A stretch of 11,464 nucleotides of DNA, taken from the IMG/VR virus record IMGVR_UViG_2663763286_000004, positions 1-11,464 of that record; one strand, 5' to 3'. The notes below the pieces were generated by a model that worked only from the letters and a program-made list of their open reading frames with translations, was not told the DNA's origin and made no database searches. The DNA is from a virus. Lineage: Duplodnaviria; Heunggongvirae; Uroviricota; Caudoviricetes. Of this stretch, positions 4,944 to 5,370 are shown one piece after another (the first letter of the stretch is position 1; each line of letters begins with the position of its first letter). The position numbers and the translations under genes were made by a program.

Positions 4944-4959
4944 CTGTATAAATGAACAG
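4944..4959 (+). promoter_or_regulatory. LexA (SOS) box CTGT-N8-ACAG overlapping a -10-like TATAAA, 21 nt upstream of humD
   Basis: CTGTATAAATGAACAG; 20-mer TGCTGTATAAATGAACAGTA matches the E. coli SOS-box consensus TACTGTATATATATACAGTA at 15/20 positions. Confidence 0.7.
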
Positions 4960-4980
4960 TATTATTGAGGTGAAAACGCT

Positions 4981-5370
4981 ATGGGCTTCCCTTCTCCTGC
5001 GGCGGATTATGTTGAAAGCAGAATTTCTCTTGATCAGCAACTAATCAGGCATCCATCAGCGACCTACTTCATGCGGGCGGCAGACAGCCATCACCGTGAG
5101 GGAATATTGCAGGGTGCTTTGCTGGTGGTTGATTCCTCGCTTACTCCGGTTGATGGTTCGCTGCTTGTCTGCGCTATGGAGGGTGAATATCGCATAAAGA
5201 GATACCGAAAGTATCCGCGCCAGCACCTGGAGGATTTAAGCACCGGGAAGAAAGAGGCGTTACCAGTAGATGACGATGGTTACACGGGTAGTAATGCTGT
5301 TTTTGGTGTGATCACTCATGTCATCAATGATGCCCGAAGTGGGGAATTTGATGATTGTCCGGTGATTTAA
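4981..5370 (+). CDS. humD: HumD, UmuD'-like protein lacking the N-terminal arm before the autocleavage site (129 aa)
   Basis: [15 protein letters not shown]... aligns with E. coli UmuD starting at Gly25 ([29 protein letters not shown]); ends [10 protein letters not shown] like UmuD VFGVVIHVVK; good RBS GAGGTGA. Confidence 0.85.
   Translation: [129 protein letters not shown]

What the first reader, a model, noticed from the sequence alone, without database searches (positions are those of the whole stretch)
4944..5370. SOS-box-controlled, pre-processed UmuD' homologue (humD)
A CTGT-N8-ACAG LexA box overlaps the -10-like TATAAA directly upstream of a gene whose product starts at the residue equivalent to UmuD Gly25, so it is born in the active UmuD' form. 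This matches what is described for P1 HumD. It is a known function but shows the phage supplies a mutagenesis/translesion cofactor under SOS control.
Basis: partly seen in the sequence, partly recalled or inferred. Interest (0 to 1): 0.35.

Follow-up and report, generated by a model that had tools for sequence, protein, structure and literature searches.

The report
Phage P1 humD with LexA box
This is the already-described humD gene of P1-type phage-plasmids, a ready-made (pre-cleaved) copy of the bacterial mutagenesis factor UmuD' sitting behind a LexA repressor site, so the finding is correct but ordinary.

Summary
Window 4981-5370 (+) encodes a 129-aa protein that is 99.2% identical to P1 HumD and 100% identical to P7 and SJ46 HumD. 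It is a full-length equivalog match to the curated NCBIfam "HumD family" model. An in-frame TGA four codons upstream rules out any N-terminal extension. HumD Gly2 aligns with UmuD Gly25, which is residue 1 of crystallised UmuD'. The 20-mer TGCTGTATAAATGAACAGTA (4942-4961) is the only CTGT-N8-ACAG in the window and scores like genuine E. coli LexA operators. The P1, P7 and phiKO2 GenBank records annotate the same position as a LexA site. Every one of 87 P1-family loci and 14 of 14 unrelated standalone homologues (down to 44% identity) has a box upstream, with conserved arms and a variable spacer. This window lacks P1's divergent lxr gene, so the box belongs to humD. One detail is not supported: the "-10-like TATAAA" lies in the variable spacer of the box. 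Comparison points instead to a -10 straddling the left edge of the box, and the promoter in this lineage remains unclear. Side observations: the family does not conserve the catalytic Ser, and it carries a conserved, unexplained C-terminal tail.

The parts
4942..4961 (.). LexA operator (SOS box), TGCTGTATAAATGAACAGTA; arms CTGT 4944-4947 and ACAG 4956-4959; it ends 19 nt before the humD ATG
   Evidence: It is the only CTGT-N8-ACAG in the window. Its HI-style score is 5.5-6.4 and 0 of 100 randomised windows do as well. The same position is annotated as a LexA binding site in P1 AF234172 and P7 AF503408. The arms are conserved and the spacer is variable in 87 P1-family loci and in 14 unrelated phages.
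4915..4920 (+). Candidate -35 hexamer TTGCAC (inferred, low confidence)
   Evidence: A -35-like hexamer (TTGAxx, TTCACA or TTGCAx) recurs 17-22 nt upstream of the box in most lineages. In this window the spacing to the candidate -10 is 19 nt, which is suboptimal.
4940..4945 (+). Candidate -10 hexamer TATGCT straddling the left edge of the LexA box (inferred, low confidence)
   Evidence: The equivalent position is TATACT, CATACT or TACACT, with TTCACA 17-18 nt upstream, in RCS47, D6, Cyrano, pAEv1818, yong1 and Pocitis76 (best-scoring architecture). The simple consensus scan finds no promoter in 4400-5500, but it also misses the annotated Pphd promoter.
4947..4952 (+).
   Evidence: It is present, but these positions vary among relatives, the T at -7 is missing and there is no -35 at 16-18 nt.
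4966..4968 (+). In-frame TGA stop four codons upstream of the humD ATG, which excludes any UmuD-like N-terminal arm
   Evidence: Read directly. The ORF listing gives 4981 as the first start after the stop.
4967..4972 (+). Shine-Dalgarno GAGGTG, 8 nt before the ATG
   Evidence: Read. GAGGT or GGAGGT is conserved at the same place in the homologues.
4981..5370 (+). humD coding sequence, 129 aa, a standalone UmuD'-type protein (Met1-Gly2 aligns with UmuD Cys24-Gly25)
   Evidence: Supported. dN/dS is 0.025-0.063 against P1, RCS47, D6 and Cyrano.
5086..5088 (+). Codon for Ser36, equivalent to the UmuD catalytic Ser60; present here but not conserved in the HumD family
   Evidence: The column is S in 16 and T in 11 of 27 close relatives, and T, Q or Y in distant standalone homologues.
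5197..5199 (+). Codon for Lys73, equivalent to UmuD Lys97
   Evidence: It is invariant among 27 close relatives, but M in HK639 and R in pAEv1818 and the Hafnia phages.
5326..5367 (+). Family-specific C-terminal extension [15 protein letters not shown] (aa 116-129), absent from UmuD and UmuD'; function unknown
   Evidence: R119, F123, D125, C126 and V128 are invariant in 27 relatives, and the motif is recognisable even at 44% overall identity.

Best explanation
This is the humD gene of a P1-family phage-plasmid of E. coli, together with its LexA operator. In an undamaged lysogen, host LexA dimer binds the 20-bp operator at 4942-4961. The operator lies 19 nt upstream of the start codon, over or next to a weak core promoter, and binding keeps humD off (inferred). 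DNA damage activates RecA, LexA cleaves itself, and humD is transcribed (inferred). The product lacks the 24-residue N-terminal arm of UmuD. After removal of Met1 it should begin at the Gly that RecA-mediated cleavage exposes in UmuD, so it needs no processing (the start is shown by sequence; Met removal is inferred). The phage has no umuC. HumD is therefore expected to dimerise and join host UmuC and RecA to form a Pol V-like translesion polymerase. This was shown experimentally for P1 HumD by McLenigan et al. 1999 (J Bacteriol 181:7005) and is inferred here from 99% identity. The gene and box behave as a small mobile SOS-controlled module that sits in different neighbourhoods in different phages.
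For: Identity: the DNA is 97.5% identical to P1 and P7 across humD-phd-doc. The protein is 99.2% identical to P1 HumD and 100% identical to P7 and SJ46 HumD. It matches the NCBIfam HumD equivalog at 220 bits against a cutoff of 120, end to end. The P1 record states that HumD 'functionally complements E. coli UmuD''. Pre-processed form: Gly2 aligns with UmuD Gly25 and UmuD' residue 1, and there is an in-frame stop 4 codons upstream. All 14 standalone phage homologues and 25 of 27 database relatives start MGFPSP. Phage full-length UmuDs encoded next to umuC keep the arm and the C/A-G cleavage site. No umuC. LexA control: the motif is unique in the window and its score is within the range of real operators. 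The P1, P7 and phiKO2 records annotate a LexA site there. Each of 20 diverse loci of 1.5-10 kb has exactly one LexA-like site, always immediately upstream of the humD or umuD homologue or its operon. All 87 P1-family loci keep it despite at least four different upstream contexts. The 19-nt gap between box and ATG matches tightly LexA-repressed Salmonella genes: umuD 15, dinI 19, sulA 21 (PMC8072944). Functional gene: dN/dS is 0.03-0.06.
Against: No experiment was done on this sequence, so LexA binding and SOS induction are inferred. The primary papers (McLenigan 1999; Lobocka 2004; Lewis 1994) are not in the held library. Their content is cited from the title, from GenBank notes and from my memory. 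No convincing sigma-70 promoter can be assigned in this lineage. P1's own annotated 'PhumD' lies about 480 bp upstream inside lxr, in DNA this window does not have. The box carries G at position 2 (TGCTGT), where most relatives have TACTGT; E. coli lexA operator 1 has the same G (from memory). CRISPRi shows humD is non-essential for P1 lytic growth (PMC10695390), so its benefit to the phage is unknown.
Confidence: 0.88

Rival explanations
1. HumD is not mainly a Pol V subunit. It is instead a phage modulator of the host damage response, for example by titrating uncleaved UmuD, UmuC or RecA filaments, or by using its conserved C-terminal tail to bind some other host partner. On this view its ability to complement UmuD' when over-expressed is a side effect.
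For: The family carries a strongly conserved C-terminal extension (R119, F123, D125, C126 and V128 are invariant) that UmuD' lacks and that nothing yet explains. The protein falls below the curated cutoff of the canonical UmuD model, 88 against 110 bits. phiKO2 and HK140 pair the gene with a divergent dinI-like gene under the same LexA site; DinI is a RecA-filament modulator (established knowledge). From memory of the McLenigan 1999 abstract, complementation needed a high-copy plasmid and native expression is poor.
Against: The core is 44-50% identical to UmuD' over the whole fold. Published work reports complementation of mutagenesis and binding to UmuC and RecA filaments (title cited; P1 GenBank note). 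SOS-timed expression is what a translesion cofactor would need.
Confidence: 0.08
2. The LexA box really belongs to a neighbouring gene (lxr in P1) or is a chance AT-rich palindrome, and humD is expressed independently of SOS.
For: The P1 record assigns the site to 'lxr and humD' and places its predicted PhumD far upstream. A bare CTGT-N8-ACAG arises by chance in 13% of shuffled windows.
Against: This window has no lxr and no hot. The upstream genes are co-directional, yet the box keeps the same distance to humD. All 87 P1-family loci with at least four upstream contexts keep it. So do N15, HK639, an Enterobacter phage, BTP1, Aeromonas and Hafnia phages with unrelated flanks, while the DNA around the box is unalignable. 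The full 20-mer score is beaten by 0 of 100 randomised windows.
Confidence: 0.02
3. The ORF is a decaying 5'-truncated remnant of a umuDC operon rather than a functional gene.
For: Some relatives are indeed broken: BTP1 stops after 28 aa, and Huey and APC_JM3.2 after 98 aa. The catalytic Ser is not conserved in the family.
Against: dN/dS is 0.025-0.063 with dS up to 0.87. The start, the Shine-Dalgarno sequence and the full length are conserved in hundreds of database clusters. There is a curated equivalog model and published function for the 99%-identical P1 protein.
Confidence: 0.01

Closest known systems
Bacteriophage P1 / P7 HumD (AAQ14073 / AAQ07575; NCBIfam NF051876 'HumD family translesion DNA polymerase')
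   Same: It is the same gene: 129 aa, 99.2% (P1) and 100% (P7, SJ46) identical. It has the same Shine-Dalgarno sequence, the same LexA site 19-20 nt upstream, and the same downstream phd-doc addiction module.
   Different: There is one residue difference from P1 (Gly103 here, Cys in P1). The box has G instead of A at position 2. The DNA upstream of 4826 is unrelated to P1: lxr and hot are absent and co-directional hypothetical genes take their place. This arrangement occurs in only 3 of 87 P1-family loci examined and in 3 PLSDB plasmids.
E. coli UmuD / UmuD' (Pol V accessory subunit; PDB 1UMU, 1AY9, 1I4V, 8GMT)
   Same: It has the same S24 fold region, alignable from UmuD Gly25 to the C-terminus (E = 2e-23). 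The Ser60 and Lys97 equivalents are present in this protein. A LexA box lies close upstream of the start codon.
   Different: There is no N-terminal arm and no Cys24-Gly25 cleavage site, so no RecA-mediated activation step. There is no umuC in an operon. It has a 3-residue insertion and a 14-residue conserved C-terminal tail. It scores below the curated UmuD model cutoff. The catalytic Ser is not constrained across the family.
Standalone UmuD'-like genes of other temperate phages (N15 gp26, phiKO2 gp23, HK140_028, HK639_28)
   Same: They share the same born-truncated start (MGFPSP), the same C-terminal tail, a LexA box 34-64 nt upstream and no umuC partner.
   Different: They are 65-70% identical. 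They sit in different genomic positions, after the tail-fibre genes and next to sop/par or integrase genes. In phiKO2 and HK140 they are paired with a divergent dinI-like gene.
Plasmid and ICE-encoded UmuD homologues (MucA, ImpA, RumA) and phage umuDC operons (Klebsiella ST846-OXA48phi9.2, Salmonella Oslo, Cronobacter ENT39118, Morganella IME1369_01)
   Same: They are mobile-element-borne, LexA-box-controlled translesion accessory proteins. In the four phage operons examined here the box lies about 30 nt from the start codon.
   Different: The four phage operons examined encode full-length, cleavable proteins with a conserved GDSM...K dyad, and each is followed by its own umuC-type polymerase gene. 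MucA, ImpA and RumA were not examined here and are named from general knowledge.

Membership tests
HumD family (NCBIfam NF051876, equivalog) | Scores above the curated whole-protein cutoff, end to end | tested here: met
   220.2 bits against a cutoff of 120; protein 1-129 matches profile 1-129 of 129.
HumD family (NCBIfam NF051876, equivalog) | Translation starts at the residue equivalent to UmuD Gly25 (no N-terminal arm, no cleavage site) | tested here: met
   Gly2 aligns with UmuD Gly25 and UmuD' residue 1. An in-frame TGA lies 4 codons upstream.
HumD family (NCBIfam NF051876, equivalog) | Standalone gene with no cognate umuC in an operon | tested here: met
   Downstream are phd and doc. tblastn with four phage UmuC fragments finds nothing in the window beyond a chance hit at E = 0.26.
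HumD family (NCBIfam NF051876, equivalog) | Substitutes for UmuD' in SOS mutagenesis; binds UmuC and RecA filaments | not testable with these tools
   Published for P1 HumD (McLenigan 1999, cited; P1 GenBank note). It is inferred here from 99.2% identity.
UmuD, autoproteolytic Pol V subunit (NF007621 / PRK10276; MEROPS S24) | Scores above the curated cutoff of the UmuD model | tested here: not met
   87.9 bits against a cutoff of 110. Pfam Peptidase_S24 is met, at 36.1 against 23.3.
UmuD, autoproteolytic Pol V subunit (NF007621 / PRK10276; MEROPS S24) | N-terminal arm with a Cys/Ala-Gly cleavage site that is removed by RecA-facilitated self-cleavage | tested here: not met
   The arm is absent and cannot be encoded.
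UmuD, autoproteolytic Pol V subunit (NF007621 / PRK10276; MEROPS S24) | Conserved Ser-Lys catalytic dyad | tested here: inconclusive
   Ser36 and Lys73 are present in this protein, but GDSM has become ADSH. The Ser column is S, T, Q or Y across the family and the Lys column is K, M or R. Activity was not testable.
UmuD, autoproteolytic Pol V subunit (NF007621 / PRK10276; MEROPS S24) | Encoded in an operon with umuC | tested here: not met
LexA (SOS) regulon member, gammaproteobacterial type | A 20-bp operator matching TACTGT(AT)4ACAGTA with both CTG and CAG arms | tested here: met
   16 of 20 positions match and both arms are intact. The HI-style score of 5.5-6.4 is within the range of known operators; the training set was recalled from memory.
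LexA (SOS) regulon member, gammaproteobacterial type | Operator positioned over the core promoter or transcription start | tested here: inconclusive
   The 19-nt distance to the ATG is typical of tightly repressed SOS genes. In RCS47, D6, Cyrano, pAEv1818 and the Hafnia phages a good TTCACA-17/18-TATACT promoter overlaps the box. In this lineage only weak candidates exist.
LexA (SOS) regulon member, gammaproteobacterial type | Operator conserved in orthologous loci while the flanks diverge | tested here: met
   87 of 87 P1-family loci and 14 of 14 distant standalone homologues have a box upstream. In HK140 it lies upstream of a two-gene operon.
LexA (SOS) regulon member, gammaproteobacterial type | LexA binding in vitro and LexA/RecA-dependent induction in vivo | not testable with these tools
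   Only database annotations are available. The primary papers are not held.

The most novel reading that the evidence does not exclude
The standalone HumD family may be more than a shortcut version of UmuD'. Across unrelated temperate phages it has dropped the constraint on the catalytic Ser (S, T, Q or Y) and partly on the Lys. It has also acquired a nearly invariant acidic, Cys-containing C-terminal tail (R-x-x-E-F-D-D-C-P-V-[MI]) that UmuD lacks. That tail could be a docking peptide for a host partner other than UmuC; it loosely recalls the acidic SSB C-terminal tail DFDDDIPF. The LexA box plus gene would then be a mobile SOS-timed module with a function not yet described. Nothing here tests this, and the McLenigan 1999 paper, which I could not read, may already discuss the tail.
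Probability: 0.12. Interest if true: 0.4.

Novelty: already known. Interest (0 to 1): 0.1.

Why it matters
It matters little as a discovery. humD, its UmuD'-like start and its LexA site were described for P1 in the 1990s and 2000s, are annotated in GenBank, and are captured by a curated NCBI family model. The result is useful as annotation. It identifies the window as a P1-family phage-plasmid carrying the humD-phd-doc block. This natural variant without lxr also shows that the LexA operator is tied to humD itself. It corrects the proposed -10 element. Biologically, it is a reminder that phage-plasmids common in E. coli and Salmonella can supply an SOS-induced, activation-independent Pol V cofactor, which could raise damage-induced mutagenesis in their hosts.

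Tried and rejected
(1) The consensus promoter scan of 4400-5500 found nothing. It also misses the annotated Pphd promoter, so the negative result is uninformative. My own hexamer scoring gave only weak candidates in this lineage.

(2) TATTAT at 4960-4965 is the best-scoring -10-like hexamer. I rejected it because a start about 7 nt downstream would fall inside the Shine-Dalgarno sequence.

(3) The primary papers (PMC94175 and PMC523184) are not in the held library. Literature searches returned only citing papers.

(4) The AlphaFold2 model built from 27 relatives had mean pLDDT 57 and put a helix where UmuD' has a strand. I discarded it and ran no fold search.

(5) A second LexA-like site at 2523-2542 (- strand, HI-style 9.6) has only one good arm and lies inside a small hydrophobic ORF. 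I judged it a chance match.

(6) The idea that the upstream copy of phd-operator-like sequence puts humD under Phd/Doc control: the similarity is only modestly significant (4 of 2000 shuffles do as well), the second palindrome is disrupted, and the copy is more degraded in P1. I recorded it as a possible recombination scar and did not pursue it.

(7) Lxr and Hot were searched for in the window by tblastn and are absent.

Full report
**What is there**

Window 4942-4961 reads TGCTGTATAAATGAACAGTA, with CTGT at 4944-4947 and ACAG at 4956-4959. Nineteen bases further on, an ATG at 4981 opens a 129-codon ORF that ends at 5370. GAGGTG at 4967-4972 sits 8 nt before the ATG. An in-frame TGA at 4966-4968 is followed by GGT GAA AAC GCT, none of which is a start codon, so the protein cannot be longer at its N-terminus (read).

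**Is it more than chance?**

- CTGT-N8-ACAG occurs once in the 11.4-kb window. The expected number is 0.14, and 13% of shuffles had at least one, so the bare motif alone is only suggestive.
- The full 20-mer matches the LexA consensus at 16 of 20 positions.
- I built a heterology-index-style matrix from 19 E. coli operators that I listed from memory, so it is approximate. The site scores 5.5-6.4. The operators themselves score 1.1-12.7 in leave-one-out tests, and none of 100 randomised windows scores as well.

**Identity of the locus**

- From 4826 onward the DNA is 97.5% identical to P1, P7 and SJ46 across humD-phd-doc. The window as a whole is a P1-family phage-plasmid, closest to RCS47 and to E. 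coli plasmids such as NZ_CP058684.
- The P1 record AF234172 annotates humD at the matching position ("functionally complements E. coli UmuD'"). It also annotates a protein_bind feature, "LexA binding site in the regulatory region of lxr and humD", exactly where the box lies. P7 does the same.
- The protein is 99.2% identical to P1 HumD and 100% identical to P7 and SJ46 HumD.
- It is a full-length equivalog hit to NCBIfam NF051876 "HumD family translesion DNA polymerase": 220 bits against a cutoff of 120, profile positions 1-129 of 129. It is below the cutoff of the canonical UmuD model, 88 against 110.
- The protein database holds 615 relatives at E <= 1e-10, many already named "HumD family" by NCBI.

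**Pre-processed UmuD'**

- phmmer against PDB aligns HumD Gly2 with Gly25 of full-length UmuD (8gmt_B) and with residue 1 of UmuD' (1umu_A, E = 2.4e-23).
- Methionine aminopeptidase normally removes Met before Gly (established knowledge). The mature protein should therefore begin at exactly the residue that RecA-mediated cleavage exposes in UmuD.
- All 14 standalone phage homologues I collected have the homologous Gly/Phe-Pro-Ser-Pro start, and 25 of 27 database relatives start MGFPSP.
- Phage genes that are followed by umuC encode full-length proteins with the arm and a C/A-G cleavage site.
- The window contains no umuC, and neither do the flanks of the standalone homologues.
- humD is under strong purifying selection: dN/dS is 0.025-0.063 against P1, RCS47, D6 and Cyrano, with dS up to 0.87. 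It is not a decaying remnant.

**SOS control**

I could not test binding, so I used phylogenetic footprinting.

- In 100 loci, a CTG-N10-CAG site with at least 14 of 20 consensus matches lies 34-39 nt before the start codon in nearly all standalone homologues, from 100% down to 44% protein identity. The offsets are -50 in pAEv1818 and -64 in phiKO2. In HK140 the site lies before a two-gene operon.
- Each of 20 diverse loci of 1.5-10 kb has exactly one such site, and it is always this one.
- The arms are conserved, while the eight spacer bases and the surrounding DNA vary freely.
- Among 87 P1-family loci there are at least four upstream contexts: 39 lxr-type, 34 hot-type, 3 like this window and 11 others. 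All keep the box within 60 nt of the start.
- This window has neither lxr nor hot, and its upstream genes run in the same direction as humD. The operator is therefore tied to humD and not only to P1's divergent lxr.
- The phiKO2 record independently annotates a LexA site between its UmuD'-like gp23 and a dinI-like gene.
- The 19-nt gap between box and ATG resembles tightly repressed Salmonella SOS genes: umuD 15, dinI 19, sulA 21 (PMC8072944).

- The proposed -10, TATAAA (4947-4952), lies in the AT-rich spacer that the LexA consensus itself prescribes. It lacks the T at -7 and has no -35 partner at 16-18 nt.
- In relatives the same positions read TATGAA, TATGTG, TATGCA, TATTAA and TACGTA.
- Anchoring the sequences on the box shows a -35-like hexamer 17-22 nt upstream. 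In RCS47, D6, Cyrano, pAEv1818 and the Hafnia phages the best architecture is TTCACA (TTCAAA in Cyrano)-17/18-TATACT (or CATACT/TACACT), with the -10 straddling the left edge of the box.
- Other lineages show TTGATC-17-TACTGT. From memory, this is the sulA arrangement.
- The equivalent elements in this window are TTGCAC (4915-4920), a 19-nt spacer and TATGCT (4940-4945), which is weak. P1 is weaker still.
- The consensus scan finds nothing, but it also misses the annotated Pphd.
- P1's annotated "PhumD" lies about 480 bp upstream inside lxr, in DNA that this window lacks.
- The promoter therefore remains unassigned. Either candidate would be covered by LexA, so the regulatory logic does not change.

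**Mechanism**

LexA represses humD in the lysogen. Damage-induced LexA cleavage de-represses it. HumD needs no RecA-mediated activation and joins host UmuC and RecA to give Pol V-like translesion synthesis. The last step was published for P1 HumD (McLenigan et al. 1999, cited). I could not read that paper and rely on its title, the GenBank note and my memory of the abstract. CRISPRi shows that humD is dispensable for P1 lytic growth (PMC10695390).

**Side observations**

- The UmuD Ser60 column is Ser in the P1 group, but Thr in N15, phiKO2, HK140, HK639, Huey and an Enterobacter phage, Gln in an Aeromonas phage and Tyr in the Hafnia phages. Among 27 close relatives it is S in 16 and T in 11.
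- The Lys97 column is Met in HK639 and Arg in three phages. Full-length UmuDs encoded next to umuC keep GDSM and K. This relaxed constraint fits a protein that never has to cleave itself.
- The family has a conserved C-terminal extension absent from UmuD, with R119, F123, D125, C126 and V128 invariant. Its role is unknown. An AlphaFold model was too poor to use.
- A degenerate copy of the phd operator and ribosome-binding-site region lies just upstream of the box.

**Verdict**

The finding is a correct identification of a known gene and a known regulatory site. Novelty is "already known" and interest is low.

Noticed in passing
window 5326-5367 (HumD aa 116-129): The HumD family has a conserved C-terminal extension, [14 protein letters not shown][IM], that UmuD and UmuD' lack. 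R119, F123, D125, C126 and V128 are invariant in 27 relatives, and the motif is still recognisable in Hafnia phage proteins at 44% identity. It is acidic and loosely reminiscent of the SSB C-terminal tail. Its function is unknown.
   Followed up: partly
window 5086-5088 and 5197-5199 (Ser36, Lys73); loci L083-L094: The S24 catalytic Ser is not conserved in the standalone family (S, T, Q or Y) and the Lys is replaced in some members (M or R). Phage full-length UmuDs encoded next to umuC keep GDSM...K. This fits loss of the self-cleavage requirement.
   Followed up: partly
window 4899-4939 versus 5411-5445: The region just upstream of the LexA box resembles the phd operator, ribosome-binding site and ATG region. 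It shares the exact 11-mer ACATAACGAGT at 4904 and 5419. The local alignment score is 27 against 13.9 +/- 2.7 in shuffles, and 4 of 2000 shuffles do as well. The copy ends in an ATG (4937) followed by a 4-codon ORF. It may be a scar of insertion or duplication of the humD cassette in front of phd. The copy is more degraded in P1.
   Followed up: partly
window ~4826 and ~4933: These are mosaic junctions. Similarity to P1, P7 and SJ46 starts at 4826, and similarity to RCS47 and D6 starts at 4933, just before the box. Upstream of 4826, P1's lxr and hot are replaced by co-directional hypothetical genes (PGAP calls 3658-4308 and 4581-4859 in the near-identical plasmid NZ_CP058684). This exact junction is rare: 3 of 87 viral loci and 3 PLSDB plasmids.
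   Followed up: yes
P1 AF234172 87080-87106 (L001 1152-1178): P1's annotated 'predicted sigma 70 promoter PhumD' lies about 480 bp upstream of humD, inside the oppositely oriented lxr gene. That DNA is absent from this window and from the RCS47/D6-type phages, so it is unlikely to be the conserved humD promoter.
   Followed up: partly
L084 (phiKO2) 1181-1423 and L086 (HK140) 410-676: In phiKO2 and HK140 the HumD-like gene is paired with a divergently transcribed dinI-like gene that shares the LexA site. This combines a RecA-filament modulator with a pre-cleaved UmuD' in one SOS module.
   Followed up: no
L089 (BTP1), L090 (Huey), L091 (APC_JM3.2): The humD-like genes in these P22-like phages are interrupted, at 28 aa or 98 aa before a stop, although each still has a LexA-like box about 37 nt upstream. 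They look like recent pseudogenes.
   Followed up: no
window 2474-2560 (+) and 2523-2542: There is a small ORF encoding a hydrophobic 28-aa peptide ([27 protein letters not shown]). Inside it is the window's second-best LexA-like 20-mer (HI-style 9.6, only one good arm), which is probably chance.
   Followed up: partly
window 5443-5664 and 5664-6044: The phd-doc toxin-antitoxin addiction module lies immediately downstream of humD (PHROG hits at 3e-19 and 3.5e-49). No terminator-like site was found between humD and phd, so SOS-induced humD transcripts may read into phd-doc.
   Followed up: no
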